Assembly (NCBI GenBank): GCA_947258385.1
Contig: CAMYII010000116.1
Location: 3,984 to 67,983 of the forward strand
Direction of reading: 5' to 3'
Source: Acidiferrobacterales bacterium
Lineage (GTDB): Bacteria; Pseudomonadota; Gammaproteobacteria; Acidiferrobacterales; SZUA-150
Length of the DNA: 64,000 nucleotides
Under the pieces are notes generated by a model. The model made no database searches. It was not told the DNA's origin and saw only the letters and a list, made by a program, of their open reading frames with translations. Positions 10,992-28,112 of the stretch are shown piece after piece; positions within the stretch are counted from its first letter, which is position 1; every line of letters begins with the position of its first letter. Made by a program: the position numbers and the translations under genes.

Positions 10992-11020
10992 TTGACAGGT
11001 CTTTGTACTACTGCGATAGT
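10992..11020 (+). promoter_or_regulatory. sigma-70-like promoter of the blaI-like gene (TTGACA-17 nt-GATAGT)
   Basis: A perfect -35 TTGACA lies at 10992-10997. A 4/6 -10 lies at 11015-11020 and overlaps the palindromic operator. Confidence 0.4.
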
Positions 11021-11028
11021 AACAAAAC
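11005..11028. promoter_or_regulatory. palindromic operator-like site 1 (GTACTA-N6-TAGTAA)
   Basis: An inverted repeat TACTA/TAGTA. About 19-20 of 24 positions are identical to a second copy at 12415-12438 (TACTACnnnGATAGTAACnAAAC). Confidence 0.55.
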
Positions 11029-11092
11029 CGTCACAAAACCGTCCCACCCGCGGCGTTCAACCGCCCGAGCACCGTGGAGCGCAACCGCACAC

Positions 11093-11482
11093 ATGGAAAA
11101 CAGCCCCGACCGTTTGGGTGATCTCGAACTGGCGATCATGAATGTGCTCTGGCGTGCCGACGGCCCACTCGAGGTCAAAGCGGTCGCGGCGCGACTGGGG
11201 CGACAGCGGGCCTATACCACGGTCATGACCACGCTGAGCCGATTGCACAAGAAGGGCTATCTGACACAGCAAAAGCACGGACGGGCGTTCGCCTACAGCC
11301 CGCGTGTCAGCCAGAAGACGATTCTCAAGAAAACGCTCTCACGCGTCGCCGCCACCCTGTTCAACGGTGATCTCCAGGAGTTGGTGCCACATCTGCTGGG
11401 CATCGACCGGCCACTCAGCGACGCGGAGCGCCGAAAACTGCAGGAGCTCGCCCTCAGCATCAAGGATCGCGATCATGACTAA
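11093..11482 (+). CDS. BlaI/MecI/CopY-family winged-helix repressor
   Basis: ..LELAIMNVLW..GPLEVKAV..AYTTVMTTLSRLHKKGYL..FAYSP.. is typical of Penicillinase_R-type repressors. The start is set at ATG 11093. Confidence 0.85.
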   Translation: MENSPDRLGDLELAIMNVLWRADGPLEVKAVAARLGRQRAYTTVMTTLSRLHKKGYLTQQKHGRAFAYSPRVSQKTILKKTLSRVAATLFNGDLQELVPHLLGIDRPLSDAERRKLQELALSIKDRDHD

Positions 11483-12365
11483 TCAGATCCTGGGCTTTCT
11501 GGTGGGCGCCGCAGTGATCACGGCGCTGTGGTCCGTGCTCGCCTGGGCGCTGGTGAAACTGTTCCGCATCCATTCACCGGCGGGTCGATTTGTCATTTTT
11601 CTGGCGCCGCTGCTGGCCGCCTTCGTCGTCAGGCTGCGCCTGAATCCGGGGGCGATGCTCCCGGTCCTGGTGCTGTGCGTGGGCGTCGCCGTGGCCTTGC
11701 TGGCCAGAGACCTGCTGCGTTGCCGGGCGCTGCGCAGACGCATAGAGGCCGAGGCCCGACCAGCGCCGGCAATCCAGGAACTCGTGGATGAACTCGCCCG
11801 GTCCTTCAAGATGCGCGCCCCAACAGCGCTGACCTGGAACCAGGGCCAGCTGGGGCCGTTCACGGGGGGGATACGCAGACCTTACGTCGTACTGACCACG
11901 GAATTGCTTTCCACCCTGGAACCCGATGAGCTCCGTGTGCTGCTGGCGCATGAGCTGGCGCATGTCCGGCGCCGGGACGCCTTATGGAAATGGCTGTTGC
12001 TGTTTCTGCGACATCTATCGTTCCTGAACCCCGCGGTCCATTGGCCCTATCGTTGGCTCAATCTGGAGATGGAACGCAGCTGTGACGAAGCCGCAAGCGC
12101 AATCATCCGCAAACCCGGCGCGCTCGCCCGCGCGCTGCTGAAAGTGGAGAGCGTCATCGCAAAACGAGGCGACAGCTGTGCACCGCGCCGGACCGAGTTC
12201 CTTGCCCACGCGGAATCGCACCTGGCGGCGCGCATTCACTCGCTCGCGACGACAGCGCCCACCCACACGGATTGGCTGACGCTGCTCAAGGTGCCCGCCG
12301 TCTTTCTGATCTTCTTCACGATCTGCCTTCAACCCGCACAAATCTGGCTCAAATTCTTCAATTAG
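11475..12365 (+). CDS. M56-family (BlaR1/MecR1-like) membrane metalloprotease transducer without a penicillin-binding sensor domain
   Basis: HExxH (LLAHELAHVRRRD) after N-terminal TM helices. The ATG at 11475 overlaps the blaI-like stop (11480-11482). At about 296 aa it is too short to carry a C-terminal PBP-type sensor. Confidence 0.8.
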   Translation: MTNQILGFLVGAAVITALWSVLAWALVKLFRIHSPAGRFVIFLAPLLAAFVVRLRLNPGAMLPVLVLCVGVAVALLARDLLRCRALRRRIEAEARPAPAIQELVDELARSFKMRAPTALTWNQGQLGPFTGGIRRPYVVLTTELLSTLEPDELRVLLAHELAHVRRRDALWKWLLLFLRHLSFLNPAVHWPYRWLNLEMERSCDEAASAIIRKPGALARALLKVESVIAKRGDSCAPRRTEFLAHAESHLAARIHSLATTAPTHTDWLTLLKVPAVFLIFFTICLQPAQIWLKFFN

Positions 12366-12414
12366 TTCAAGCATATAGCAAACACTCGGCCACACCGGGC
12401 TACGGAGACTTGAA

Positions 12415-12438
12415 TTACTACCAGGATAGTAACTAAAC
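12415..12438. promoter_or_regulatory. palindromic operator-like site 2 (TTACTA-N6-TAGTAA)
   Basis: A perfect 6-bp inverted repeat with a 6-bp spacer. It lies about 70 bp upstream of the MBL gene at the edge of an AT-rich block and is a near-copy of site 1. Confidence 0.55.
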
Positions 12439-12506
12439 TACGTTTTTATAAAATACTTCTATATATACATTATAATTTTTTATAATCTACTAGAGGAAGG
12501 AAAACG

Positions 12507-13541
12507 ATGAGGAACCATCACAACAATGCCTTACCCCTTACCGCGGCGGCCCTGCCGCTACTCACACACGCCCACCGGCATGTTGCCCGACTCATGTCGC
12601 TGGTCCTATGCGGACTCGTGCTCGGGCTGACGTCGCCCGGGAATGCCGCCCATGCGGGAGAACTGTCCGTCACCGTGTTGGGCAGTGGCGGCCCGATGGC
12701 GCTGGTCGACCGGGCCTCGGCCGGGTATCTGATAGATATCGACGGCGTGCCGCGGATCTTCATGGACGCCGGCGGGGGCACCCTGGTCAGATTGGGTCAG
12801 GGCCGCATATTCAATCTTGAGCGCGTGGATTTGTGGCTGCTCACCCATCTGCACATCGATCATGTCTCGGAATTCCCCGCCATCGTGAAATCCATGTATT
12901 ACCTGCGCCGGGCCTATAACGTAAGGACACCGTTGACGATCATCGGACCCGAGGCCTGGGGGAAATTTCCAAGCACCACGAAGTTCGTGGCCGATCACTT
13001 CAATGGGGCCGACGGGACCTATGCCTATCTGCATGATTTTCTGAACACCGTGTACAGCCCGGACATGAAGCTCGAGACCATCAATGTGCCTTACGACTAT
13101 GAAACGGTGCGAACGCCCGAGCTGGCTTTTGACAAAGACGGTGTGCGCGTGTCGACCATCCCGGTCATGCATGGACCGCGCGAATCGCAGACCCCCTCGG
13201 TCGCGTTCCGCGTCGACTATGACGGCAAGTCCATTACCTACTCGGGCGATTTGAATTCCGACAGCGGCAACCTGCTGACCCTGGCCATGGGCACGGATAT
13301 CCTTATTTACGATACCGCTCTGGGCCCCGCGCAGCGGTTTGATCCACCGGACCTGTTTCACTCCCTGCCCGCCGAGATCGGACAGACCGCTGAGGCGGCC
13401 GGGGTGAAAAAGCTGGTACTGTCTCACTTCATGCCGCCCTATACCGATCAAAAAATCGAGCGGATCGTCTCGCGGGTCAAGGAACACTATTCGGGAGAGG
13501 TGATCGTGGCCCACGATCTGCTTTCAATCCCCGTCCAGTAA
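12507..13541 (+). CDS. secreted MBL-fold metallo-hydrolase
   Basis: HxHxDH (THLHIDHVSE), an N-terminal hydrophobic signal (..LVLCGLVLGLTSPGNAAHA) and the SD GAGGAAGGA before ATG 12507. Confidence 0.75.
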   Translation: MRNHHNNALPLTAAALPLLTHAHRHVARLMSLVLCGLVLGLTSPGNAAHAGELSVTVLGSGGPMALVDRASAGYLIDIDGVPRIFMDAGGGTLVRLGQGRIFNLERVDLWLLTHLHIDHVSEFPAIVKSMYYLRRAYNVRTPLTIIGPEAWGKFPSTTKFVADHFNGADGTYAYLHDFLNTVYSPDMKLETINVPYDYETVRTPELAFDKDGVRVSTIPVMHGPRESQTPSVAFRVDYDGKSITYSGDLNSDSGNLLTLAMGTDILIYDTALGPAQRFDPPDLFHSLPAEIGQTAEAAGVKKLVLSHFMPPYTDQKIERIVSRVKEHYSGEVIVAHDLLSIPVQ

Positions 13542-13939: not shown

Positions 13940-14833
13940 ATGTGGGAGGAGCTGAACAGTGACGTCAATGAAGACACCGAAAAATTCCTGATATCGCAAC
14001 AAAGACTCGAAGAATCGTACGCGCGATGCGCGAGCGCGGAGCTCTATCGCGAGATTGACCGCCCAAATGTCAGTTTGAATGGCGAGGCGCTTCAACGGCT
14101 GCTGGCCGGGCATGCCTCGCTGATCGCCTACGCGCATCTTTTGTTCGCCGACACGCACCGGTTTTTCCCGGATCCGCGACAGGTATTACTGCTGACGGAC
14201 GCCAACGCCTGTGTCCTTGACCTCTACTCACCGTCCAGAATCCTTGAGGCCGCCAGCTCCCGATGCGGGCTCTGCGTGGGGGTATCACTGGGTGAAAGCA
14301 GCTGTGGCACCAACGCCATTGCGCTGGCGCTGCGCCATCGCGAAGTTGCCGTCCTGCAAGGACAGCAGCATTTCTGTCGCCTGTTCCACGATTGTTGTAC
14401 GGTCGCCGCCCCGGTGCTGTCGCTGCAGGGGCGCCCCATCGCCTGTGTCGGTATCGGTTATCCCTATAACTCGCCGCTGGCGGAGAAGCCCGCCCTCATC
14501 CGATGCCTCGCCCAGAAGCTGGGGCACTTTGCCGATGCGGACATACCCTGCCCCAGCGCGGCACGTGCGTATGGTGAGTCCAGCGAAAAGGACGGAAACT
14601 ACTCCGGGGTAGCATTGACCTCGCGCCAGCGTCAGGTACTGCTCTCCTTCGCCAAGGGCTTGAGCTACAAGCAGATCGCGAGAAAACTGGGCATCAGCTC
14701 GACCAAGACCGTGGAGGAGCATCTGGATGCCGTGCGCAAGAAGCTGGGCGTCGAGTGCCGCCGGGAATGCATCCAACGGGCGACCGAGCTTGGGCTGTTA
14801 ACCGGCGGCTCAAACCACGTACCATCCCACTGA
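13940..14833 (+). CDS. LuxR/FixJ-type HTH regulator with an AcoR-like GAF sensory domain
   Basis: C-terminal LuxR HTH (LTSRQRQVLLSFAKGLSYKQIARKLGISSTKTVEEHL). The N-terminal block ..SCGTNAIALAL.. is as in AcoR-type GAF domains. AGGAGG lies before the ATG. Confidence 0.75.
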   Translation: MWEELNSDVNEDTEKFLISQQRLEESYARCASAELYREIDRPNVSLNGEALQRLLAGHASLIAYAHLLFADTHRFFPDPRQVLLLTDANACVLDLYSPSRILEAASSRCGLCVGVSLGESSCGTNAIALALRHREVAVLQGQQHFCRLFHDCCTVAAPVLSLQGRPIACVGIGYPYNSPLAEKPALIRCLAQKLGHFADADIPCPSAARAYGESSEKDGNYSGVALTSRQRQVLLSFAKGLSYKQIARKLGISSTKTVEEHLDAVRKKLGVECRRECIQRATELGLLTGGSNHVPSH

Positions 14834-16064: not shown

Positions 16065-18044
16065 TTATTTCTCACCGCGACCCCTGTGACCGCGTGCGCG
16101 CCAGGTGGTGGAGGCCATGACATAGGGCTCCGCCATGCCGGTATTCAACCAGGCATCCAGTAAGTTGACACCTTCGTCGGCGAGAAAAGCGTTGCTCCGG
16201 GTGTTAGCGAGATACAGGAACTGGATGTATTCCCAACTCGTGGGTTGATAGAGCAGCGCGATGTCAGCGCGCACGGCACCGGCCGGCGGATCGAGCCTGA
16301 CCCGATCCCAATAGTTATAGCGCCCACCGGGCCCGGGATCGCCGTACTGGCTCGCCGGCACCGGCAACGCATTGCGCCGCCTGGCCTCGTCATAGTCCAT
16401 GCCGTATGGCGGAATGCGGTTGTCCTTGGCCAGGTAGTTGTTCAGCACGAAGTGGAAAGACTCCTCGTAGCTGCCCGGTTCCTCATCGGCCAGTTGCTCT
16501 AAGGTGACCGCCACCTCACCGCTCACCCGGTCAAAGCTCACCGGGAGCTCGCCGGGCAGCCCGAATCCCAATAACTGCACGGCCCACTCCTGGGTCATGG
16601 CACCGTGGGCCTCGTAGATCCTGTTGTTGGGATCGTGCAGATCCAGAATGGTGTTTACCGTCCTGAACTCGCCATTGATTCTTACCATCAGAGCGCCATA
16701 AGCACCGTCCTCTCGAATCAGCGCGCCGTCCTCGTCATACCATTTCATGTTCAGCCACATGCGACGGCCTTCGGGGTACCCCGAGATCAGCTTATGACCC
16801 GTGAGGTTCGTGACCTTGAGGGTTTTGCCGTTGACTTTGATGGTGGCGGCCCACGTGAGATTGCGCTTGGCGCGCTCGATGCCGTCGACGATGGCCGCGT
16901 GCTGCCAGTCCTCCAAGCCGCCGCCCAGCCTGAGCTTGTCCTGCGCATCCAGGTATTGAATCGCGACCGGCGTCCAGTAGTTGCCGCCGGTCAGATCGTG
17001 CGAGGGCATGTCCTTGCGCAGCTTCGGCTGATTGTGAATGCGGCTGCTGGCCTCGCCGACGACGGGCGACAAATGGCAGGTCTGGCAGCTGAAATAACGC
17101 GGCGTGCCGTCCTCGTAGTCGCCGCGCTCCCCGGCCAGCAGGGCCTGCTCATAGGCGGCCTTGATTGCGCCCTTTTGCAGATCCTCGGGCAAGGATTTGT
17201 ATTTCGACACCCGCGTCTGGGATAACAGGCCGGCCTTGTACTCGCTATAGGTCCGTTCCACGATCCCGTATTGATACGGGAGATTATTGAACGCGGCCTT
17301 GGTCTCCAGCGGAGCGCCCGGGATGCCGCTAAACGTACCGGCCGCAAGCGGGATCTGTGCGCCGTTGTTATGCGCAAGATCACCGACCGCCGGATTCGAG
17401 ACATCGTGACAGGTGCCGCAAAGATCCACCGAACGGTGATAGTTGGACTGCAAGGAGGGATGCTTGGCCACCGCGTCACTGAAGGGTCCCAGTTTGTCCA
17501 GGCCCGGCCACACGACATATTGTCCCGCGCCGTAATGACCGATCGCGGGGTCGCCTTCGTCATTGGCAATAAACGGCGGGTTCTGCACGCCGAGGTGTTC
17601 GGACTCGTCCGGATTGGTCAACCGGTGACAGAAATCGCATTCGATACCGTCATGATCCCGGTCGGTCAGCGCGGAGCCATCGGTCGGTACCGAACGACCC
17701 GCGAGCCAACCGGACGCCGAATGGCAACGGATACACAGATCCCCCGAGCCATCGATATCCTGCTCGGCAACGGCAAGCGTGGCCCAGAACAGCGGATCAC
17801 GGCCGGCCAAAGACATCATGCTTCCCTGCCAGTTGTGACCCGGCTCGACGTCAGTATTGTAACCGCCGTGACAGAACAGGCACTGCGCAGCCGGGTCCAG
17901 GCTATTGAAGTCGCCGGGCTGAGGCACCGGACTGGCGACCTGCCCTGGCTGTGTACCAGGCATCCGGATTTCATTGGGAACGGTATCGGCGGCGTAAGCA
18001 ACACCGCACACCAAGGTAAGCACGAACGAGAGTACGAGTTTCAT
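16065..18044 (-). CDS. periplasmic pentahaem c-type cytochrome (659 aa)
   Basis: Signal peptide MKLVLSFVLTLVCGVAYA. Five CxxCH motifs (CLFCH, CIRCH, CDFCH, CGTCH, CQTCH). It lies 39 nt upstream of the TsdA-like gene on the same strand. Confidence 0.8.
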   Translation of the reverse strand: MKLVLSFVLTLVCGVAYAADTVPNEIRMPGTQPGQVASPVPQPGDFNSLDPAAQCLFCHGGYNTDVEPGHNWQGSMMSLAGRDPLFWATLAVAEQDIDGSGDLCIRCHSASGWLAGRSVPTDGSALTDRDHDGIECDFCHRLTNPDESEHLGVQNPPFIANDEGDPAIGHYGAGQYVVWPGLDKLGPFSDAVAKHPSLQSNYHRSVDLCGTCHDVSNPAVGDLAHNNGAQIPLAAGTFSGIPGAPLETKAAFNNLPYQYGIVERTYSEYKAGLLSQTRVSKYKSLPEDLQKGAIKAAYEQALLAGERGDYEDGTPRYFSCQTCHLSPVVGEASSRIHNQPKLRKDMPSHDLTGGNYWTPVAIQYLDAQDKLRLGGGLEDWQHAAIVDGIERAKRNLTWAATIKVNGKTLKVTNLTGHKLISGYPEGRRMWLNMKWYDEDGALIREDGAYGALMVRINGEFRTVNTILDLHDPNNRIYEAHGAMTQEWAVQLLGFGLPGELPVSFDRVSGEVAVTLEQLADEEPGSYEESFHFVLNNYLAKDNRIPPYGMDYDEARRRNALPVPASQYGDPGPGGRYNYWDRVRLDPPAGAVRADIALLYQPTSWEYIQFLYLANTRSNAFLADEGVNLLDAWLNTGMAEPYVMASTTWRARGHRGRGEK

Positions 18045-18466
18045 CGAAGCTGTCTCCTTCCTGGAATTCCACTTTGTTCACGCGATCGACTCGCATGAAC
18101 ACTGCTCAACCGTGAACGCCACAGGCGCTTAAGGGAAAGTAAAGTGAGTTGCGCCCTTTAATGACTTTAACGAATGACATAGGAATACACCGCAAGACGA
18201 TGTCTGTAAATGATATAAATCAATCGCTGCGCGCAATCACAACATTAACAACGTTGCGATGTTATATGTGTGTCCGCGGACCCCGGTAAAGAACGGGGTA
18301 CCTCTGATATCGATACCTATGTCTTTGGCGGGTTGCCGTTCACAGGCAGCCATGATTGACTGTAAACCACACCGCGTTTGTGCCTTTGACATCCAATCCT
18401 TTGGATGGCCCACAAGGCGTTTGTGTTGACGCGACATTGCACCCTAAGCTCCAGGGAGGTTGAGCC

Positions 18467-20311
18467 ATGTTGACCCATCGAGCATCGACTGAAACTAATC
18501 CTTGTCGGTTTTTTTCCACCATTGCTTTTAAACTGTCTCTGTCGCACGAAGGCCGTTTAGTGACTAGCGTCGCCCTAGTGCGCAGCCTGATGTACCTTGT
18601 CGTTCTCGCCGCCATCACATTCGCGGTTAGTGCCAATGCGAATCAAGGTGCAACCGGTAATGATGATGATGACGATGATCAGGATAAAGAAATATCGCTG
18701 ACCCTGATCCAGATCGGTGACCTGCACGGTCATATGGTCCCGCGTCCGAATCTGCGAATCGACAGTGTAGATGGTGTCAAGGAAGGAGGGCTTGCCCGCA
18801 TCGCCGGCAAGATCAAACAGATTCGCGCAAGCGATCCGGATGCCTTGCTGTTCAACGTCGGCGACACCATCCAGGGCGGCGCCGAGGCGCTCCATACCAG
18901 TGGCCAGGCCATGGTCGATGTGGTGGACACCTTCGGCGTCGACGGCTTCGCGCCCGGCAACTGGGAATATCTCTACGGCGCGGAGCGCTTTGTCGAACTT
19001 TTTGGCAGCGGACGCTGGGGCTCGGTGGCGGCCAATCTTTATTACGAAGACACTGGCGAACGGGTGCTACCGCCGTATCTGATTAAGGAGGTCAAGGGTA
19101 TCAAGGTCGGTTACATGGGATTGACGACTGACCGTGGCCTGCCGGCGATTCCCAACGCTACCGAGGGTCTGGTCTTCACCGGCGACGCGGCGGAAATACC
19201 GGTGCTCATCGACAAGCTGCGCAACGAAGAGAGGGTCGATGTGGTGATCCTGTTGTCCGAGTTCGGGCTGGCCAAGAATGTCCTGCTGGCGGAACGCTAC
19301 CCGGGTATGGATGTGATCCTATCCTCCGACATGCACGAGATCACGCCGCGGGCGGTCGTCACCTCGACGGGCACCCTGGTCTCCGAGGTGGGACAGGACG
19401 GCACCCGCATGGGCAAAGTGGTGTTGCGCCTGGTCGACAAACAGATCGTGAAGCGCAAGTACAAATTCATAAACATAGACGCTACGATCGAATCGGACCC
19501 CGAGACCGCCAAGCTGGTACGCAAGATCCGCAAGGCCTTTGTTACAGGCTCTGGGTTCCAGTCGCATATCAATCCGATCAGCGGCGCCATCCTGAATACG
19601 CCCATTAATACCGTAGTAGGGATCGCGGAGGTCGGCCTGCATCGCTCCAACTTCACCGACCACCCGCTGCCCGGTGTGATCGAGGGCACCTCGCATGATT
19701 TTCTGACCGACGCCTTCCGCGATCAGGGCATGTCGGACTTCGCCTCCATCCGCGGCTTCCGTTACGGCACGCACGTGCGGCCCGGGCCAATCAGACTGGA
19801 GGATCTCTACCATTACCTGCCCACCGGCGCACAGATCGCCCGCGGCACCATCCCGGGTCTGCAATTGAAAACTGTCATGGAGAACACCATCAACGGCTCG
19901 CTCAACAAGGATCCGTTCAAGTGGGGCGGCGGCTGGGTGTTCGGCTTCAGCGGTATCACCTTCGATCTGGACCTGACCGCACCCAGAGGCTATCGCGCGC
20001 AGAACATCATGATCAAACGCCATGATACGGGTCTATGGGAACCGCTCGATGTGGAGGCCTTTTACACGGTAGCCGGCTTTTTCTTCGACGACGATCCCAA
20101 CCGTGTCGGCGCCTTTCGTAACGCCAAAGACATCACCGTGCTGAATGCGGAGGACGGTGGGCTCCTGGATGGGACCGAGGTGGTCGTCGATCACCTCGAG
20201 ACCCACACCGCGAATCCGCAGACGGGACGCATTCGTTTATTGCAGCCGTTACCGCCACCGGTCTACGGCAACCCCGAGATTCAACCGCTGTTGGGCGCCA
20301 CCGCGGACTGA
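18467..20311 (+). CDS. SoxB/5'-nucleotidase-like metallophosphoesterase, paralogue 1
   Basis: Metallophosphatase motifs IGDLHGH and VGDTIQGG, a variant GNWEY, and a 5'-nucleotidase-type C-domain. GGGAGG lies 7 nt before ATG 18467. The signal-like segment (LMYLVVLAAITFAVSANA) starts only at residue ~41, so the true start may be GTG 18578 or ATG 18590. Confidence 0.75.
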   Translation: MLTHRASTETNPCRFFSTIAFKLSLSHEGRLVTSVALVRSLMYLVVLAAITFAVSANANQGATGNDDDDDDQDKEISLTLIQIGDLHGHMVPRPNLRIDSVDGVKEGGLARIAGKIKQIRASDPDALLFNVGDTIQGGAEALHTSGQAMVDVVDTFGVDGFAPGNWEYLYGAERFVELFGSGRWGSVAANLYYEDTGERVLPPYLIKEVKGIKVGYMGLTTDRGLPAIPNATEGLVFTGDAAEIPVLIDKLRNEERVDVVILLSEFGLAKNVLLAERYPGMDVILSSDMHEITPRAVVTSTGTLVSEVGQDGTRMGKVVLRLVDKQIVKRKYKFINIDATIESDPETAKLVRKIRKAFVTGSGFQSHINPISGAILNTPINTVVGIAEVGLHRSNFTDHPLPGVIEGTSHDFLTDAFRDQGMSDFASIRGFRYGTHVRPGPIRLEDLYHYLPTGAQIARGTIPGLQLKTVMENTINGSLNKDPFKWGGGWVFGFSGITFDLDLTAPRGYRAQNIMIKRHDTGLWEPLDVEAFYTVAGFFFDDDPNRVGAFRNAKDITVLNAEDGGLLDGTEVVVDHLETHTANPQTGRIRLLQPLPPPVYGNPEIQPLLGATAD

Positions 20312-20451
20312 GACGGGCATCACGGGCGGCTCACGAGGCGGCACAAGCGACGCCGATCGTGAGCCGACCCGAGCCAGGGAGCTCATGCGACCAGGCAAGG
20401 TTGAGCTGATAACACGTCCGATAAAGCCGTATCAGCCAAGGAGGTTCAGAC

Positions 20452-22197
20452 ATGACGGTCATCCTACCCATCACAACGCGCCTCACTTCGCTCGTATTGG
20501 CCGCATTGGCCTGCTTTGCCATCCCCAGTGCCACGGCCACTGAAAGTAACGATACGACAACGTTAGTCATGATGCTGATTGGCGATACCCACGGCCACAT
20601 GCTGCCGCGGTCCAATCTGCGACGGGATTCTCTGGATGGCGTTAAGGAAGGGGGCTATGCCCGGTTGATGACCAAGGTCAAAGAGATTCGCCAACACGAT
20701 CCGGAGGCGCTGCTGTTCATGTCCGGCGATACGCTGCAGGGTGGGGTCGAGGCGCTTTACACAAAGGGTCAGAGCGCCATCGATGTGTTCGACACCTTCG
20801 GCATCAACGCCTTCGCCCCGGGCAACTGGGACTTTCTTTATGGGCGCGAGCGCTTTGTCGAAGTCTTCGGCGCTGACCGCTGGGGCATTGTCTGCGCGAA
20901 CCTGTACTACGAGGAAGGCTTCGAGAACCCCGAGACGCGACAGCGGGTAGTGCCCCCCTATCGCATACTGGACGTCAAAGGCATCAAGATCGGGGTCATC
21001 GGCATGACCGCCGAGCGCGGCATTCTGGCGGTACCCGGCGCCAATGATGGCTTCATTCTGACCAAGGCCCAGGACGAGTTGCCCGCCTTGATCGCCGAGC
21101 TGCGTCCCCAGGTCGATGTGCTGATGCTGCTCTCGGAGCTCGGACTGGCCAAGAACTCATTGCTCGCCGAGCGCTTTCCGGACTTCGATCTGGTGTTCTC
21201 TTCGGACATGCATGAAGAGGTACCGAACCCCATCATCATCGGCGATAAAGGCATCATCGTCACCGAGATGGGTCACGACGGGACCGGCATGATCAAAATC
21301 AGTCTTCGCCTTGACGACAAACAGATCGTGGACAAGCACTACAGCTGGCTCGACATTAATAATCTAATCATGCCGGATCCCGATGTCGTGCAGCTCATAA
21401 AACGCATCAGCGCGGAATTCGATAAAGGCGCCGCCTTCAAGACCCATATTAATCCGCTCAGCGGCTATGTACTGACAACCCCGGCCAATACCGTGGTCGG
21501 CCGTAACGCCACCCGCCTGTACCGCTACGATTTCACCGACGACCCGCGCCCCGGGGTCATCGAAGGGGCCTCGCATGACTTTCTGACTGATGCCTTCCGC
21601 GAGCGGGCGGCGGCAGACTTCGCCATGATCGTGGGTTTCCGTTACGGCACCCACTTGCGTCAGGGGCCGATCCGCTTGCGCGACCTGTACCACTATCTGC
21701 CGGCCGGCGCCCAGATCGCCAAGGGCACGGTCAGCGGTCAGCAGATCAAGAATGTGCTGGAAAACAACACCGACGGTGCGCTCAACAAGGACCCCTTCAA
21801 ATGGACCGGCGGCTGGCTGTTCGGCTACAGCGGCGTCCAGTTCGATGTGGACTTGACGGTCCCCAAAGGCAGCCGCGCGCAGAATGTGATGATCAAACAC
21901 CAGGCGAGCGGGATGTGGAAATCCCTGGAGCTTGGGGCGAGCTACACCGTGGCAGGGTTCTGGTTCCCGCTGCGCCCGAACCGCATCGGTGTCTTTCCCA
22001 TCGCCGATCCGTCCACCGTCATCCGCCTGACGCTCCCGGACGGCTCACCCAAGGATGCCACGGAGGTGGTCGTTGATTATCTCCAGACCACGACCGCCAA
22101 TCCGGACATGGGCCGCATCCGCTTACTGACACCGTTGCCGCCACCGGTATTCGGCAACCCCGAGGTCCAGCCCCTGCGGGGCGCCACGCTGGAGTGA
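20452..22197 (+). CDS. SoxB/5'-nucleotidase-like metallophosphoesterase, paralogue 2
   Basis: AAGGAGG SD and a Sec signal (..LAALACFAIPSATA). The motifs IGDTHGH, SGDTLQGG and GNWDF are collinear with paralogue 1 over the full length. Confidence 0.8.
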   Translation: MTVILPITTRLTSLVLAALACFAIPSATATESNDTTTLVMMLIGDTHGHMLPRSNLRRDSLDGVKEGGYARLMTKVKEIRQHDPEALLFMSGDTLQGGVEALYTKGQSAIDVFDTFGINAFAPGNWDFLYGRERFVEVFGADRWGIVCANLYYEEGFENPETRQRVVPPYRILDVKGIKIGVIGMTAERGILAVPGANDGFILTKAQDELPALIAELRPQVDVLMLLSELGLAKNSLLAERFPDFDLVFSSDMHEEVPNPIIIGDKGIIVTEMGHDGTGMIKISLRLDDKQIVDKHYSWLDINNLIMPDPDVVQLIKRISAEFDKGAAFKTHINPLSGYVLTTPANTVVGRNATRLYRYDFTDDPRPGVIEGASHDFLTDAFRERAAADFAMIVGFRYGTHLRQGPIRLRDLYHYLPAGAQIAKGTVSGQQIKNVLENNTDGALNKDPFKWTGGWLFGYSGVQFDVDLTVPKGSRAQNVMIKHQASGMWKSLELGASYTVAGFWFPLRPNRIGVFPIADPSTVIRLTLPDGSPKDATEVVVDYLQTTTANPDMGRIRLLTPLPPPVFGNPEVQPLRGATLE

Positions 22198-22269
22198 CAC
22201 GCGGCGACGCGCAATGTTTAAGCCGGCCCGCCTTAAGGCGGTAGACCCGTTTCCACGGAGGAGAGCACC

Positions 22270-25200
22270 ATGACACGTCTTAGCAGAGCCTTCATCACCG
22301 CACTCGGCCTCGTTGTCCTGCTCATGTCAACGCCGCCGCTGACCCTGGCCAACGTTAGCGAGCGCCCCACCTGCTCGCCTGAGCTGTTGCAGTCGCTGGA
22401 CATGTTCAACTGCATCGCGAGACAGGAGCTGCCGCCGATCGAGTTCGGGCCACCCGACACCTTTCTCGATCGCCGCGCGCGCGAGGCGTTTCCACAAAAC
22501 TGGACTCAGCTCGGATTCGATCAGCGCCACAACCCGGTGTTTCCCGTACCGGACACGGCCCCGCCATTCCTGCGCTTCGGCACCTTCTGGGCCGCAAACA
22601 TTACTGGACTGGACTTTCTACGCCTGGGCCGGGCCCTTGACACCATCGGTAACCCGGAGGCCTGGGGCTCCAAGACCGCCCAGTACCTGGGAAACGTCAT
22701 GGGGGTATCGGCCGCCCAGGGCATCGTCTATGTCCAGCTCGGCCGCCACGAGATCTGGGCCCTGGACGGCGCCAGCGGCAGAGCAATCTGGCAGGCCGAT
22801 CTCACAACATCGGCCGGTATGGGTGAGACCCTGGTCGAGGAGATCAACGGCCGGCTGATGGTGTTCGTGCCCGTCGGCGATGCCGCCTTCACCGTGCAGA
22901 ATGCCATCGACTTCGCCAACGGCCAAGCCCACGACCGCGGCGCCAATTTCTCAGGCGTGTATGCCTTTGACGGCGTCACCGGCGAGCGGCGCTGGCGCTT
23001 CGCCACCAAGGGCGCGTCACGCCCGACGCCCGTCTATCGCAACGGCAAGCTTTACCTGGCGACTGGCGGCGGTGAGTTCTTCGTGCTCAACGCAGAAGAC
23101 GGCAAACAACTGGGCAGCTTCACCAACCCCGGCGAGGGCTTTCCCGGCCTGGCCTCGCTGAACTGGTTCGAGACCGCGGACGACCGGATGTTTCTGATCT
23201 ACGGGACCATCCGCCCGCGGAGAATCCTGGCGGTCGATGCGACGGATCCGAGTGCACCGGTGTTGGGCTGGCAATACACGCCGGCCAACGCCACCGCCAA
23301 TGCCCCGGGTGATACCCCGGTCGCGGTCGACCCGGAGTTGGGCATGGTGTTCACCACCGTGTTCAGCAGTGTCTCAGGGCAATTTACAACCAATGTGCTG
23401 GCGCTGGACGCGACCACCGGCGAGGTACGCTGGAATGATTTCGCCGGCGGCATCGACAGCCCGCCCGGTTACAAGGGCAGCGTGCCCATGGTACACGCGG
23501 GTGGGCTATACGTGGGCAACACCAGCAACGGCAGGTATCGCGCCTATGACGCGCTCACCGGCACCTTGCGCTGGGAGGCCGATCTGAGCGAGGCGGACGA
23601 CCCGCCGGGGCTGATCCACCGGCCGCGGGCCGCCGCCGTATTCCACGACGGGAAGCTGATCGTCGCCGAGGGCCGCGATATCCACACCTTCGACCCCGAG
23701 ACCGGCATTGAGCTCAATCGCTTCGAGACGCCCGGCACCTTCGCCGTCTGGGGCATCAACCAGCCGGTCATCATCGGCCAGCTGATGATCCTGAGCTCCA
23801 TCTCCGGTTGGGTGTTCGCGGCACCGGTCGATGTCATCACCAACTTTCCCGGCTTCGAGGGCGGCACAGCGCTCCCGCTCCCGGGTGGGGATACGCCGCC
23901 ACCCCCGCAGCTACCCGAGTTTTTCAATCCGCTGGCCCTGCCCACTCGCTCGGAGGCCAAGCAGTTCCCGAGCACCTGGCTGGCCTACGCCGGCGGCCAG
24001 GACCATAACGGTGTGGCGAACCAGGGTCCGAGCGGCGTCGCCTGGCAGACCGCGCTCAATAGTGCCCTATCGCTGGACGCGCCGCCGCTGGACGAGTTCA
24101 TCTACGGCACAGAGATCGCCACCCACATGACCCACCTGGCGTTCGGGGTCGGCACCGGCGTGTCGCCGGCCAACGGTATTCTCTATGTCGGCAGCGACCG
24201 TTATACGATCAATGCCCTGAACGCGTTGACCGGGGAGCCGATCTGGCGCTTCCGCACCATTAACGCCAACTTCGGTCAGCCGCTGGTGACAGCGGATACG
24301 GTCATCGTCAGTGGCGGTGATCCCTGGATGAACCTCGGCAATACGGGAAGGTTCCGGTCCAACTCGCCGGCCACGGTCATCGGCGACAGCTTCCCCACGG
24401 TGCATGGGCTCGACCCCAAAACCGGGCTCGAGAAGTGGACTTTCTACAGCGACGGCGGCACCAGCGCCATGACCCCGCTGTATCATGACGGCAAGCTGTA
24501 CTGGGTCAACGGCGAGGCCAAGGTCTGGGCCATCAATGCCGAGACCGGCGAACCGGTGTCTCCCTTCATGGACCCGGACGGGCTGCCGGTCCTGTCGCTG
24601 GGCGGCTTCAACGCCATCTCCTCGGCCAACGTATACAACGAGCCGGGCGGACCCGATCTCATGGTCGTCGGCACCGCCATGCCCAATCGGATCTGGGCCA
24701 TCGATCTGGCCACGGCCGAGGTGGCCTGGAGCTACGACCTAGCGGGAGTGAATACGTATGTGACGGGATTTGCCACCGTGTCGCCGACGTTGGAGCAGAA
24801 TCGCGGGCTGGTGATCAGCACGGTGCTGACCGATGCGGATCCGTTGACGAACACCGTGACCGTGCTCGCGTTCGCGCTCGACGGCAAGACCGGCGCGCCG
24901 GTCTGGACCCAAGCCCTGGGCACGGGGTCTATCCCGACCGGCTTCACCGGTCCCGTGCCGCTGATCGCAAAGAGCAGCGTTTACCTGCACAACCCGCTGA
25001 CTCAAACCATGACCGCGCTAAATGCGCTAACCGGTGCCGTAAAATGGCAGATGCCGATCTCCACACCGGAGGGCAAGTTCAGTTGGGGTCCGGGCGTGGT
25101 CGTGGGCAACAAACTGATCGTGCCCGCCGGGCCCGATCTGTACACCTTCGACGCCAAGACCGGTGCCGTACTCGCCCAGCGGCGGATCGGTGGGTCGTTT

Positions 25201-25320
25201 ACCTATAACAACCCGACGGTGGCCGGCAAAACACTTTATATCGGCAATTCCTGGGGCTGGGTGTCAGCCATCCCGCTTGGCACGGAAACCAACGACGACG
25301 ACGACGAGAAAGACGATTGA
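22270..25320 (+). CDS. secreted 1016-aa protein of PQQ/BamB-type beta-propeller repeats (probable double propeller)
   Basis: GGAGGAG SD and the signal peptide MTRLSRAFITALGLVVLLMSTPPLTLA. At least 13 repeats of the type (A/N)xD..(T/S)Gxx.W occur (IWALDGASGRAIWQ, YAFDGVTGERRWRF, LALDATTGEVRWND, YDALTGTLRWEA, LNALTGEPIWRF, LDPKTGLEKWTF, FALDGKTGAPVWTQ, LNALTGAVKWQM ...). Confidence 0.75.
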   Translation: MTRLSRAFITALGLVVLLMSTPPLTLANVSERPTCSPELLQSLDMFNCIARQELPPIEFGPPDTFLDRRAREAFPQNWTQLGFDQRHNPVFPVPDTAPPFLRFGTFWAANITGLDFLRLGRALDTIGNPEAWGSKTAQYLGNVMGVSAAQGIVYVQLGRHEIWALDGASGRAIWQADLTTSAGMGETLVEEINGRLMVFVPVGDAAFTVQNAIDFANGQAHDRGANFSGVYAFDGVTGERRWRFATKGASRPTPVYRNGKLYLATGGGEFFVLNAEDGKQLGSFTNPGEGFPGLASLNWFETADDRMFLIYGTIRPRRILAVDATDPSAPVLGWQYTPANATANAPGDTPVAVDPELGMVFTTVFSSVSGQFTTNVLALDATTGEVRWNDFAGGIDSPPGYKGSVPMVHAGGLYVGNTSNGRYRAYDALTGTLRWEADLSEADDPPGLIHRPRAAAVFHDGKLIVAEGRDIHTFDPETGIELNRFETPGTFAVWGINQPVIIGQLMILSSISGWVFAAPVDVITNFPGFEGGTALPLPGGDTPPPPQLPEFFNPLALPTRSEAKQFPSTWLAYAGGQDHNGVANQGPSGVAWQTALNSALSLDAPPLDEFIYGTEIATHMTHLAFGVGTGVSPANGILYVGSDRYTINALNALTGEPIWRFRTINANFGQPLVTADTVIVSGGDPWMNLGNTGRFRSNSPATVIGDSFPTVHGLDPKTGLEKWTFYSDGGTSAMTPLYHDGKLYWVNGEAKVWAINAETGEPVSPFMDPDGLPVLSLGGFNAISSANVYNEPGGPDLMVVGTAMPNRIWAIDLATAEVAWSYDLAGVNTYVTGFATVSPTLEQNRGLVISTVLTDADPLTNTVTVLAFALDGKTGAPVWTQALGTGSIPTGFTGPVPLIAKSSVYLHNPLTQTMTALNALTGAVKWQMPISTPEGKFSWGPGVVVGNKLIVPAGPDLYTFDAKTGAVLAQRRIGGSFTYNNPTVAGKTLYIGNSWGWVSAIPLGTETNDDDDEKDD

Positions 25321-25345: not shown

Positions 25346-25370
25346 CCCCCCGGGGCTTAGCCCCGGGGGG
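25346..25370 (+). terminator. GC-rich hairpin after the propeller gene
   Basis: CCCCCCGGGGC-TTA-GCCCCGGGGGG forms an 11-bp stem and is followed by TT. Confidence 0.55.
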
Positions 25371-26376: not shown

Positions 26377-26392
26377 TGGCACGGGAATTGCT
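26377..26392 (+). promoter_or_regulatory. sigma-54 (RpoN) -24/-12 promoter
   Basis: TGGCAC-GGGAA-TTGCT matches the TGGCAC-N5-TTGCW consensus exactly. It lies about 130 bp upstream of the 62-aa ORF. Confidence 0.6.
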
Positions 26393-26810: not shown

Positions 26811-28112
26811 TTACGAGAACATGTCAGCGGTGATGCTCGCGTACCAGCCCGAGGCATAGTCGGCCTCCTTCTTGCGAAACTCATCGCTTGCATCCATGGG
26901 GCTGAGCCCGCCCGATCCCTTGACCTTCCTGATGCCCTCCTCGGTCACATTGTAGACGGCCGCCACCGAGATCCCGTAGTCGGGGGCGACCAGACTGTAG
27001 CAGGTGTTGACATAGGAAGGATCCGGCATCGCCGTACCGCTCAGACTTGATACGATCGCCGCCGCGCAGACCTTGCCCTGGCTGTTGGCGGCATACCCGG
27101 ATTTCGGCATCTGCCCGGCGATCGAGGCATCGCCGATGACATACACGTCCTTGTGCACGCTGGACTCGAACGTGCGCTGATTCACCGGACACCAGCCATC
27201 GGCGTTCACCAACCCCGCCTTGTGCGCGAGCTCACCCGCTTTTTGCGGCGGAATGAGATTGACCACATCACCGGTATGCGCCTCCCCGAATTCGGCATAA
27301 AGCGTTCGCTTGGCCATATCGATACGGTCAATCTTGCCGCCGGCGCTCGCCTTCACCCACTCGATCATCCCCGGATAACGCTTCTCCCATCCCTGCATGA
27401 ATAATCCCTGCTTGGAGAACTTGTCCTTGGCATCGAGGATCAAAACCTTGGACTTCGGTTTATTCTGGGTCAGATAATGCGCGATCAGACTCGCGCGTTC
27501 GTAGGGCCCGGGGGGACAGCGGAATGGATTGCCGGGCGGTACGATGATCACCACCCCGCCATCCTGCATCGCTTCCAGCTGCTTGCGCAGCGTACGGGTC
27601 TGCGGCCCGCCCTTCCAGGCGTGCGGAACCGTCTCACAGGCCGCCTCGTCATAACCCTCAATGGCGTCCCAGCGGAAATCGATCCCGGGAGACACCACCA
27701 GGCGGTCATACTGCATGGTCTTGCTGCCTTTAAGCGTAAGCTTTTTGGCCGCGGCATCGATATCGGTCACGGCCCCACGGATCACGTTGATCCCGTAGTT
27801 ATCGCCTAACTTGTCATAGCCGTGGGAGATCGACTCAAAGCTGCGCCCACCGACCAGAAACAGGTTGCTGAACGGACAGGTCACGAACCGCGCATCACGC
27901 TCGATCAACGTGACCTCAACGGCGGGATCGAACTTACGAATGTATTTCGCGCACGTCGCGCCGCCGAACCCGCCGCCGACCACGATGACGCGCCCCCCTG
28001 CTTTGGCCTTCTTCTGGCAGCCGCCGAGCGGCCAGGCCAGCGCCCCCATCGCCGACAGCGCACCCGCGGTACCCGCCAGCCTAATGAACCCTCTGCGTGA
28101 TAACTTGCTCAT
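26811..28112 (-). CDS. fccB: flavocytochrome c sulfide dehydrogenase, flavoprotein subunit
   Basis: Tat motif SRRGFIRL and FAD fold VIVVGGGFGGATCA. It lies immediately downstream of a small cytochrome c gene (fccAB order). Confidence 0.88.
   Translation of the reverse strand: MSKLSRRGFIRLAGTAGALSAMGALAWPLGGCQKKAKAGGRVIVVGGGFGGATCAKYIRKFDPAVEVTLIERDARFVTCPFSNLFLVGGRSFESISHGYDKLGDNYGINVIRGAVTDIDAAAKKLTLKGSKTMQYDRLVVSPGIDFRWDAIEGYDEAACETVPHAWKGGPQTRTLRKQLEAMQDGGVVIIVPPGNPFRCPPGPYERASLIAHYLTQNKPKSKVLILDAKDKFSKQGLFMQGWEKRYPGMIEWVKASAGGKIDRIDMAKRTLYAEFGEAHTGDVVNLIPPQKAGELAHKAGLVNADGWCPVNQRTFESSVHKDVYVIGDASIAGQMPKSGYAANSQGKVCAAAIVSSLSGTAMPDPSYVNTCYSLVAPDYGISVAAVYNVTEEGIRKVKGSGGLSPMDASDEFRKKEADYASGWYASITADMFS

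What the first reader, a model, noticed from the sequence alone, without database searches (positions are those of the whole stretch)
22270..25320. 1016-aa secreted double beta-propeller of PQQ/BamB-type repeats
At least 13 repeats of the form hydrophobic-x-(A/N)-x-(D/N)-x-x-(T/S)-G-x-x-x-W are spread over the whole length. That is enough for two 6-8-bladed propellers in one polypeptide. The size is about twice that of quinoprotein dehydrogenases, BamB or tetrathionate hydrolase.

I saw no obvious cytochrome or other catalytic domain. An N-terminal ~110-aa non-repeat region carries two Cys residues (CSPELLQSLDMFNC). The gene directly follows the two hydrolase genes and has its own strong SD and terminator.
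Basis: partly seen in the sequence, partly recalled or inferred. Interest (0 to 1): 0.6.

Follow-up and report, generated by a model that had tools for sequence, protein, structure and literature searches.

The report
Fused double tetrathionate-hydrolase-like propeller
This exported 1016-residue protein is two tetrathionate-hydrolase-like propellers joined in one chain, only the first keeping the catalytic residues, and it sits in a conserved gene set that may explain how non-acid-loving sulfur bacteria break down tetrathionate.

Summary
The ORF is real: 22270-25320 (+), 1016 aa, with a Sec-type signal peptide by eye. It is neither a quinoprotein nor BamB. Its only close solved relative is tetrathionate hydrolase (TetH/TTH, PDB 6L8A): phmmer E 4.5e-48, Foldseek target TM 0.90.

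The two halves are 29% identical to each other (E 3e-43). The AlphaFold model (pLDDT 94.8, pTM 0.92) shows 8 + 8 blades.

About 100 full-length relatives exist. In every N-half the TetH catalytic Asp (Af Asp325 = D348 here) and Arg223 are kept, and in most also Lys402 and Arg453. No C-half keeps this set; there it reads V/I/L-A/T-V-W. Both halves are equally conserved, so the C-half is a constrained partner that lacks the TetH site.

The gene is linked to a SoxB-like hydrolase gene in 15 of 21 distinct loci. These come from beta- and gammaproteobacteria and from MAGs labelled Nitrospirota. A TsdA thiosulfate dehydrogenase and a ~650-aa multihaem cytochrome are often present too. The whole six-gene set occurs twice in this genome.

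Best reading: a periplasmic, cofactor-free polythionate hydrolase that is a covalent pseudo-heterodimer with one active site. It would act after TsdA in a tetrathionate-intermediate pathway. The architecture is well supported; the substrate is inferred.

The same stretch was noted earlier in this scan (e1-3577702). I found no paper describing the fused form.

The parts
22257..22263 (+). Shine-Dalgarno GGAGGAG, 6 nt before the ATG
   Evidence: read directly
22270..22350 (+). Sec-type signal peptide, residues 1-27 (MTRLSRAFITALGLVVLLMSTPPLTLA|NV); no lipobox Cys, no twin-Arg
   Evidence: by eye; pLDDT below 70 here
22351..22488 (+). N-terminal non-repeat segment, residues 28-73, holding the only two Cys (C35, C48; family consensus CxxxxLxxxxMFxC)
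   Evidence: a disulfide is inferred
22489..23859 (+). N-terminal TetH-like 8-bladed propeller, residues ~74-530. Keeps the TetH signature R223, D348 (= Af Asp325), K402, R453, plus M184, M407, Q138
23311..23313 (+). Codon of Asp348, the counterpart of the catalytic Asp325 of A. ferrooxidans TetH; D in 101 of 101 N-halves
23860..23940 (+). Pro-rich inter-propeller linker, residues ~531-557 (pLDDT dips to 59)
23941..25287 (+). C-terminal TetH-like 8-bladed propeller, residues ~558-1006. The catalytic signature is replaced (V704, T836, V893, W939), yet this half is as conserved as the N-half
24775..24777 (+). Codon of Thr836, at the position of the catalytic Asp in the C-half. Family counts: A 57, T 25, G 6, S 6, D 2 of 102
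25288..25317 (+). Acidic C-terminal tail, residues 1007-1016 (ETNDDDDEKDD)
25346..25370 (+). Perfect 11-bp GC-rich hairpin after the stop codon, terminator-like, with a weak T tail
   Evidence: read directly; the consensus scan did not list it
20452..22197 (+). SoxB-like metallophosphoesterase 2 (581 aa), directly upstream with a 72-nt gap
   Evidence: linkage
18467..20311 (+). SoxB-like metallophosphoesterase 1 (614 aa)
   Evidence: its orthologue lies next to the propeller gene in most loci
16065..18044 (-). 659-aa multihaem cytochrome, divergently transcribed; 63-66% identical orthologues lie beside the propeller gene in L001, L016, L017
14904..16061 (-). TsdA-type dihaem thiosulfate dehydrogenase (385 aa). 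Keeps CTNCH, the Cys ligand in RINGC, CLPCH and GAGM

Best explanation
The gene encodes a periplasmic, cofactor-free polythionate hydrolase of the tetrathionate-hydrolase (TetH/TTH) family. An ancient tandem duplication turned the usual homodimer of 8-bladed propellers into one chain, a covalent pseudo-heterodimer.

Only the N-terminal propeller keeps the TetH active site: the general-acid Asp348 and the anion-binding Arg223, Lys402 and Arg453. The C-terminal propeller has swapped these for hydrophobic residues but remains under equal constraint. It would therefore act as the obligatory structural partner, possibly completing the N-half's site or handling the sulfur product.

In the cell it would work after the neighbouring TsdA and multihaem cytochrome, which oxidise thiosulfate to tetrathionate. 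It would split tetrathionate into sulfate plus a sulfane-sulfonate, thiosulfate or S0. The two SoxB-like hydrolases would remove further terminal sulfonate groups.

Shown: fold, duplication, residue asymmetry, gene linkage. Inferred: substrate, reaction, role of the C-half.
For: Homology and fold:
- phmmer against PDB finds TetH 6L8A/7CQY at E 4.5e-48. Query 74-283 aligns to TetH 33-241 and query 802-1006 to TetH 264-466.
- Foldseek with the AF2 model (pLDDT 94.8, pTM 0.92) ranks all twelve TetH chains first, E 5e-37, target TM 0.90. BamB follows at about 0.72.
- N-half against C-half: 29% identity over 487 aa, E 3e-43.
- N-halves, C-halves and single-domain TetHs form three clean clades (SH-aLRT 100/100/98), which implies a single fusion event.

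Active-site asymmetry:
- At the Asp325 column, D occurs in 101 of 101 N-halves, in the six single-domain homologues taken from loci L025-L030 and in 24 of the 27 non-fused library representatives (two have E, one A). Only 2 of 102 C-halves have D.
- The R-D-K-R signature is present in 7 of 7 single-domain sequences (the six locus homologues plus Af-TetH) and in 77 of 101 N-halves; R-D is in all 101. No C-half has it.
- These positions map to Asp353 and Arg460 of the M. cuprina enzyme, named as the catalytic and the substrate-contacting residue in PMC11818568.
- Mean pairwise identity within the family is 0.511 for both halves.

Gene context:
- TsdA homologue at PDB E 1e-34, with the Cys ligand kept.
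- A SoxB-like gene lies within 10 kb in 15 of 21 distinct loci, and is the immediate upstream neighbour on the same strand in 8 of them. TsdA plus multihaem cytochrome occur in Sulfurirhabdus and in a gammaproteobacterial MAG.
- The whole six-gene module is present a second time on contig C40 of this genome.
- The genome is a Sox plus rDsr sulfur oxidiser.
Against: - No activity has been measured for any member of the fused family.
- All characterised TetHs work only at acid pH, with Asp325 acting as a protonated acid (PMC10859504). Most carriers of the fused gene are neutrophiles, for example Sulfurirhabdus, which grows at pH 5.2-8.1 (PMC6397845). The chemistry or the substrate may therefore differ.
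- The second Arg named for M. cuprina TTH (Arg497) is not kept in the N-half. It is also absent from the A. ferrooxidans enzyme.
- In Sulfobacillus and Alicyclobacillus the gene stands alone, without SoxB-like or TsdA neighbours.
- I could not inspect model coordinates. That the conserved residues line one pocket, and that the two halves pack like the TetH homodimer, is untested.
Confidence: 0.6

Rival explanations
1. It has the same fold and active site but a different sulfur substrate. It would be a hydrolase or lyase for trithionate, higher polythionates, sulfane-monosulfonates or organic thiosulfonates, adapted to neutral pH, rather than a tetrathionate hydrolase proper.
For: - The carriers are mostly neutrophiles, whereas all known TetHs need acid pH.
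- The fused clade is as far from characterised TetHs (about 30% identity) as its two halves are from each other.
- One substrate-contact Arg of the M. cuprina enzyme is not kept.
- Two SoxB-like sulfonate-releasing hydrolases are co-encoded, which suggests a multi-step polythionate breakdown.
Against: - The R-D-K-R set is kept exactly as in TetHs.
- TsdA, whose product is tetrathionate, is encoded in the same module here and in three other taxa.
Confidence: 0.22
2. It is a non-enzymatic scaffold or binding protein. The double propeller would hold the SoxB-like hydrolases, TsdA and the multihaem cytochrome together in the periplasm, or bind sulfur globules, as BamB-like propellers organise partners.
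For: - Beta-propellers often act as interaction platforms.
- The C-half has no catalytic signature yet is strongly conserved.
- Linkage to several periplasmic partners is tight.
Against: - The catalytic Asp and Arg223 are invariant in 101 of 101 N-halves. A scaffold alone would not need them.
- In Firmicutes the gene occurs without any of the supposed partners.
Confidence: 0.1
3. It is a BamB-type outer-membrane assembly factor or a PQQ-dependent dehydrogenase, as public annotations of its relatives state.
For: Pfam PQQ_2 and PQQ match. [quoted passage not shown]
Against: - TIGR03300 scores 100.7 bits against a cut-off of 285. TIGR03075 scores 69 against 480.
- There is no lipobox. The only two Cys are 13 residues apart in the N-terminal segment, so there is no vicinal Cys pair.
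- The genome has its own BamB, scoring 411 bits on contig C105.
- No pqqC was found, although the control was silent.
- TetH outranks BamB in both sequence and fold searches.
Confidence: 0.03

Closest known systems
Tetrathionate hydrolase (TetH/Af-Tth, A. ferrooxidans; PDB 6L8A, 7CQY) and archaeal TTH (Acidianus, Metallosphaera cuprina Mcup_1281)
   Same: - Eight-bladed, PQQ_2-type, cofactor-free propeller fold (target TM 0.90).
- Exported.
- Conserved N-terminal FPxxW...HN motif.
- The catalytic Asp and the Arg/Lys/Arg set are retained in the N-half.
- Encoded in sulfur oxidisers alongside a thiosulfate-to-tetrathionate enzyme.
   Different: - Two propellers in one 1016-aa chain instead of a homodimer of ~500-aa subunits.
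- The second propeller lacks the whole catalytic set.
- About 30% identity to known TetHs, and a separate clade.
- Carriers are mainly neutrophilic beta- and gammaproteobacteria and MAGs labelled Nitrospirota.
- Partnered with TsdA and SoxB-like hydrolases rather than with DoxDA/TQO.
TsdA plus SoxB thiosulfate-to-zero-valent-sulfur pathway of Erythrobacter flavus 21-3 (PMC7608252, PMC9426585)
   Same: A TsdA-type thiosulfate dehydrogenase combined with a SoxB-family hydrolase, proposed to process tetrathionate at neutral pH.
   Different: - That system uses a canonical SoxB and has no TetH-like protein.
- Here the SoxB-likes fall below the SoxB equivalog cut-off (164-190 bits against 550), and a true SoxB lies elsewhere in the genome.
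- Here a fused TetH-like protein is the conserved partner.
BamB (YfgL) outer-membrane assembly lipoprotein
   Same: An eight-bladed propeller of the same Pfam clan; this is the source of the public annotation.
   Different: BamB is a ~390-aa lipoprotein with a single propeller. Family thresholds are not met here, and the genome has a separate true BamB.
Pseudo-dimeric enzymes formed by gene duplication and fusion with one dead active site (general principle, from my own knowledge)
   Same: Tandem duplication of a homodimeric enzyme, followed by loss of catalytic residues in one half while that half stays conserved.
   Different: As far as my searches show, this has not been described for the TetH family.

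Membership tests
Tetrathionate hydrolase (TetH/TTH) | Significant sequence homology to experimentally characterised TTH | tested here: met
   phmmer against PDB gives 6L8A/7CQY at E 4.5e-48, covering both ends of the protein. Single-domain TetH homologues from Sulfobacillus, Saccharolobus and Metallosphaera are 28-34% identical.
Tetrathionate hydrolase (TetH/TTH) | Eight-bladed beta-propeller fold like Af-Tth | tested here: met
   AF2 pLDDT 94.8, with 8 + 8 blades by DSSP. Foldseek target TM 0.90, E 5e-37, to 6L8A.
Tetrathionate hydrolase (TetH/TTH) | Catalytic Asp (Af Asp325 / Mc Asp353) | tested here: met
   Met in the N-half: D348, D in 101 of 101 N-halves. Not met in the C-half: T836, with A/T/G/S in 94 of 102 C-halves.
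Tetrathionate hydrolase (TetH/TTH) | Conserved basic residues near the substrate (Mc Arg460 = Af Arg428; also Af Arg208 and Lys381, invariant in all single-domain homologues examined) | tested here: met
   N-half: R453 (80 R and 10 H of 101), R223 (100%), K402 (96%). C-half: W939, V704, V893. Mc Arg497 is not kept, but it is also absent from Af-Tth.
Tetrathionate hydrolase (TetH/TTH) | Architecture: subunit of about 500 aa that forms a homodimer | tested here: not met
   A single 1016-aa chain with two diverged copies. All ~100 relatives are about 1000 aa. This is the variant feature.
Tetrathionate hydrolase (TetH/TTH) | Hydrolysis of tetrathionate to thiosulfate, S0 and sulfate, with an acidic pH optimum and no cofactor | not testable with these tools
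   Needs an enzyme assay. The carriers are mostly neutrophiles.
Tetrathionate hydrolase (TetH/TTH) | Export to the periplasm or cell exterior | tested here: met
   N-terminal Sec-type signal peptide, residues 1-27, read by eye. No dedicated predictor was available.
BamB (TIGR03300 / NF008351) | Score above the equivalog cut-off, a lipoprotein signal, and being the genome's single copy | tested here: not met
   100.7 bits against a cut-off of 285.2, and 88.2 against 423. No lipobox. A true BamB of 411 bits lies on contig C105.
PQQ-dependent dehydrogenase (TIGR03075 / TIGR03074) | Score above the family cut-off; vicinal Cys disulfide and PQQ/Ca ligands; PQQ biosynthesis genes in the genome | tested here: not met
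   69.2 bits against 480, and 30.6 against 833. The only Cys are C35 and C48. No pqqC match, but the control was silent, so that part is inconclusive.

The most novel reading that the evidence does not exclude
The C-terminal propeller is not just a structural partner but has a new function. Its former anion-binding catalytic pocket (R-D-K-R) has become a conserved hydrophobic one (V/I/L-A/T-V-W). It could capture the sulfane or S0 chain released by the N-half and pass it to the co-encoded SoxB-like hydrolases. Together with TsdA and the multihaem cytochrome, this would form a channelled, neutral-pH tetrathionate-intermediate pathway. That would be the missing second step of S4I in neutrophilic sulfur oxidisers.
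Probability: 0.15. Interest if true: 0.8.

Novelty: new variant of a known kind. Interest (0 to 1): 0.6.

Why it matters
Tetrathionate hydrolase has been purified and characterised only from acidophiles (review PMC10859504). How neutrophilic sulfur oxidisers deal with the tetrathionate made by TsdA is stated to be an open question, with both TetH and SoxB proposed (bioRxiv 10.64898/2025.12.01.691697).

This family puts a TetH-derived protein, SoxB-derived hydrolases and TsdA into one conserved module in neutrophiles such as Sulfurirhabdus, Thiobacillus and Thiogranum. That gives a concrete, testable candidate.

It would also be a clear case of a homodimeric enzyme turned into a one-site pseudo-heterodimer by gene fusion.

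In public databases these proteins are labelled 'BamB family' or 'PQQ-binding-like'. Metagenomic surveys that search for tetH may therefore miss or misfile them.

Tried and rejected
- BamB and PQQ-dehydrogenase readings. Rejected on family cut-offs, missing lipobox and Cys pair, and a separate true BamB in the genome.
- The C-half as a decaying relic. Rejected: mean pairwise identity is 0.511 in both halves.
- Stand-alone C-like or naturally split forms. A search of 1.84 billion representatives with the C-half found only fused proteins, fragments of them, and ordinary single-domain TetH-likes that almost all carry R-D-K-R. The apparent split genes in L042 and L043 sit beside similarly broken neighbours or in short assemblies, so they look like frameshifts.
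- A sigma-54 promoter upstream of the hydrolase operon. None lies in 18045-18466. The only exact match in the window is at 26377, downstream.
- The consensus promoter and terminator scan gave nothing above shuffles.
- The TetH structure paper (PMC7784748) is not held, so the dimer-loop positions could not be mapped.
- Proteome supplements of PMC6397845 hold no entry for this protein.
- A genome-level co-occurrence test was not feasible. Only 1 of 399 other sampled genomes of the class carries the gene.
Full report
**Observation.** The ORF at 22270-25320 (+) is open for 1016 codons. A GGAGGAG lies 6 nt before the ATG. A perfect 11-bp GC hairpin at 25346-25370 follows the stop. The N-terminus reads as a Sec signal peptide (MTRLSR, hydrophobic core, TLA|NV) with no lipobox. 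About 14 copies are visible by eye. Pfam gives PQQ_2 in five stretches, E 9.7e-52, and nothing else of substance.

**What it is.** A sequence search of the PDB gives one strong relative, tetrathionate hydrolase of A. ferrooxidans (6L8A, and 7CQY, the D325N mutant), at E 4.5e-48. BamB and designer propellers appear only at E of 1e-7 or weaker. Residues 74-283 align to TetH 33-241, and residues 802-1006 to TetH 264-466. The two halves of the protein align with each other end to end: 29% identity over 487 residues, E 3e-43. It is therefore a tandem duplication of a TetH-like unit joined by a Pro-rich linker.

An AlphaFold2 model built from 102 homologues has pLDDT 94.8 and pTM 0.92. DSSP groups the strands into 8 + 8 four-stranded blades, and only the signal peptide and the linker (about 531-557) have low confidence. 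The high pTM for a two-domain chain suggests a fixed packing of the propellers. I could not inspect the coordinates. Foldseek against the PDB places all twelve TetH chains first (E 5e-37 to 1.5e-31, target TM 0.84-0.90). BamB follows at about 0.72.

**Family.** About 100 full-length proteins of ~1000 aa are 43-78% identical. They come from Sulfurirhabdus autotrophica, Thiobacillus and Thiobacillaceae, Thiogranum, Acidiferrobacteraceae, MAGs labelled Nitrospiraceae or Nitrospiria, Sulfobacillus thermosulfidooxidans and Alicyclobacillus. [quoted passage not shown] The gene is rare and patchy:
- 0 of 5 genomes of the same family carry it, and 1 other genome of the same order carries the full-length fused gene.
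- 1 of 399 other sampled genomes of the class carries it.

In a tree of 25 N-halves, 25 C-halves and 7 single-domain TetHs (including Af-TetH, Metallosphaera and Sulfobacillus), the three groups are clean clades with SH-aLRT 100/100/98. N and C subtrees are broadly parallel. This points to one ancient fusion followed by co-divergence. The root, and hence the order of events, is not determined.

**Asymmetry of the halves.** I aligned 101 N-halves, 102 C-halves, six single-domain homologues and the Af-TetH fragments printed by HMMER. The column of the catalytic Asp325 was checked through the N in the 7CQY mutant and through Cys301 for numbering. The counts at that column are:
- D in 101 of 101 N-halves (D348 here).
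- D in all six single-domain homologues.
- A 57, T 25, G 6, S 6 and only 2 D among the C-halves (T836 here).

The Metallosphaera javensis homologue has the same numbering as the characterised M. cuprina enzyme, with its Asp at 353. This let me map the residues named in PMC11818568. Arg460 corresponds to R453 in the N-half (80 R and 10 H of 101) and to W939 in the C-half (91%). Gln140 corresponds to Q138 and T618.

Columns invariant in the single-domain sequences and conserved at 95% or more in N-halves, but lost in C-halves, are Af Arg208, Gly324-Asp325, Lys381, Met386 and Gly395. Af Met172 follows the same pattern at 90% in N-halves. The four-residue signature R-D-K-R is distributed as follows:
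- 7 of 7 single-domain sequences have it (Af-TetH counted through the engineered N of the 7CQY mutant).
- 77 of 101 N-halves have it in full, and all 101 have R-D.
- No C-half has it; those read V/I/L-A/T-V-W.
- 15 of 27 further non-fused, mostly single-domain representatives from a 1.84-billion-protein library carry R-D-K-R exactly, and 24 of 27 have Asp at the catalytic position (two have Glu, one Ala).

The C-half is not decaying. Mean pairwise identity within the family is 0.511 for both halves. The C-half also keeps some TetH-invariant positions that the N-half has lost: Af Pro175, Gly322, Gly463 and Asn482. This complementary pattern is what one expects if a symmetric dimer with two sites became an asymmetric one with a single site completed by the partner. 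That reading is an inference.

**Context.** The neighbours are:
- Upstream on the same strand, two paralogous SoxB-like metallophosphoesterases. TIGR04486 scores 190 and 164 bits against a cut-off of 550. They share the GxWE[FY] motif with the genome's true SoxB.
- Divergently transcribed, a 659-aa multihaem cytochrome and a 385-aa dihaem cytochrome. The latter is a TsdA homologue: 4WQ7 and 5LO9 at E 1e-34 to 2e-33, with both CxxCH motifs, the Cys ligand in RINGC and GAGM retained.

A tblastn of these neighbours against 21 distinct loci carrying the fused gene gave the following:
- A SoxB-like gene lies within 10 kb in 15 of them. It is the immediate upstream neighbour on the same strand in 8 (L003, L005, L006, L009, L010, L013, L021, L042).
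- TsdA plus multihaem orthologues, the latter at 63-66% identity, occur in Sulfurirhabdus (L001, L016) and in a gammaproteobacterial MAG (L017). L043 shows the same from its gene table.
- A LuxR-type regulator and a BlaI/BlaR/MBL trio recur.
- In the Firmicutes (L002, L018) the gene stands alone.

In this genome the whole six-gene module occurs a second time on contig C40. Identities to the window copy are TsdA 74%, multihaem 82%, SoxB-likes 58-78% and propeller 60%. The genome also has a true SoxB, SoxA and SoxY, and two dsrAB sets. Its FtsH is closest to those of Thiogranum longum and an Acidiferrobacterales MAG. So this is a gammaproteobacterial Sox plus rDsr sulfur oxidiser.

**Mechanism proposed.** TsdA oxidises two thiosulfate to tetrathionate and passes the electrons to the multihaem cytochrome. 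The fused protein binds tetrathionate in the N-propeller pocket through R223, K402 and R453. D348 acts as in Af-Tth, protonating the alpha sulfur so that water attacks the terminal sulfonate. This releases sulfate and disulfane monosulfonate, which decays to thiosulfate and S0 (mechanism from PMC10859504). The C-propeller replaces the second subunit. The SoxB-likes may hydrolyse remaining sulfonate ends (trithionate, sulfane sulfonates). S0 would go to rDsr.

The fold, the residues and the linkage are shown. The substrate, the pH behaviour and the C-half's role are inferred. The main caveat is that known TetHs are active only at acid pH, while most carriers are neutrophiles (Sulfurirhabdus grows at pH 5.2-8.1; PMC6397845).

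**Comparison and novelty.** It works like TetH, and its N-half passes the residue tests for membership. It fails the defining architecture of a ~500-aa homodimeric subunit, and half of it lacks the active site. The TTH review, the M. cuprina paper with its similarity network, the Sulfobacillus comparative genomics paper and five text searches gave no description of a fused form or of this module. A recent preprint states that the step after TsdA in neutrophiles is open, with TetH or SoxB as candidates. I class it as a new variant of a known kind.

**Limits.** Model coordinates could not be inspected. The Af-Tth structure paper is not held.

Noticed in passing
G000 contig C40:194656-206135 (outside the window): A second complete copy of the six-gene module (TsdA-like, multihaem cytochrome, two SoxB-likes, fused propeller) exists in the same genome, 51-82% identical gene by gene to the window's copy.
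   Followed up: partly
window 18467-22197: Both SoxB-like paralogues carry GNWE[YF]. The genome's true SoxB (C58) has GHWEF, and 5'-nucleotidases have GNHE (the last from my own knowledge). So the Trp is a SoxB-type trait, not a defect. They also read SSDMHE where true SoxB has GGHTHD, and they lack SoxB's ~40-residue insertion after motif I.
   Followed up: partly
window 11003-13541; also L003, L008, L010, L012, L014, L021: The BlaI/BlaR1(M56)/MBL-fold hydrolase trio upstream of the module recurs next to the fused-propeller gene in at least six loci from other organisms. It may belong to the same functional neighbourhood.
   Followed up: partly
window 13940-14833 (+): A 297-aa LuxR/GerE-type regulator lies between the MBL gene and tsdA. 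Orthologues (38-48% identical) lie near the module in L005, L006, L009, L010 and L013, and a GerE-type gene is present in L042.
   Followed up: partly
L001 1-1963 and 13645-15081; L043 482-4687: In Sulfurirhabdus and in one metagenome contig the module is flanked by a phosphonate-binding-like periplasmic protein, a PAS/HAMP histidine kinase and a sigma-54 activator. This suggests a dedicated sensor in those taxa. No such genes lie next to the window's copy.
   Followed up: no
window 26377-26391 (+): The only exact TGGCAC-N5-TTGC match in the window, a sigma-54 promoter consensus, lies downstream of the propeller gene. It is not upstream of either operon of the module.
   Followed up: no
window 26811-28112 (-): An FccB-type flavocytochrome c sulfide dehydrogenase flavoprotein with a Tat-like signal lies 1.5 kb downstream. 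This is one more sulfur-oxidation gene in the neighbourhood.
   Followed up: no
L004 (DMKB01000350.1): The closest homologue (78% identical) is labelled 'Nitrospiraceae bacterium UBA9217'. The window's FtsH is nearest to those of Thiogranum and Acidiferrobacterales. Either the label or the bin is doubtful, or the gene moves between phyla.
   Followed up: no
L003/L011, L005, L015, G184: Several genomes carry two fused-propeller paralogues within a few kb of each other (48-60% identical to the query). Duplication of this gene is therefore recurrent.
   Followed up: no
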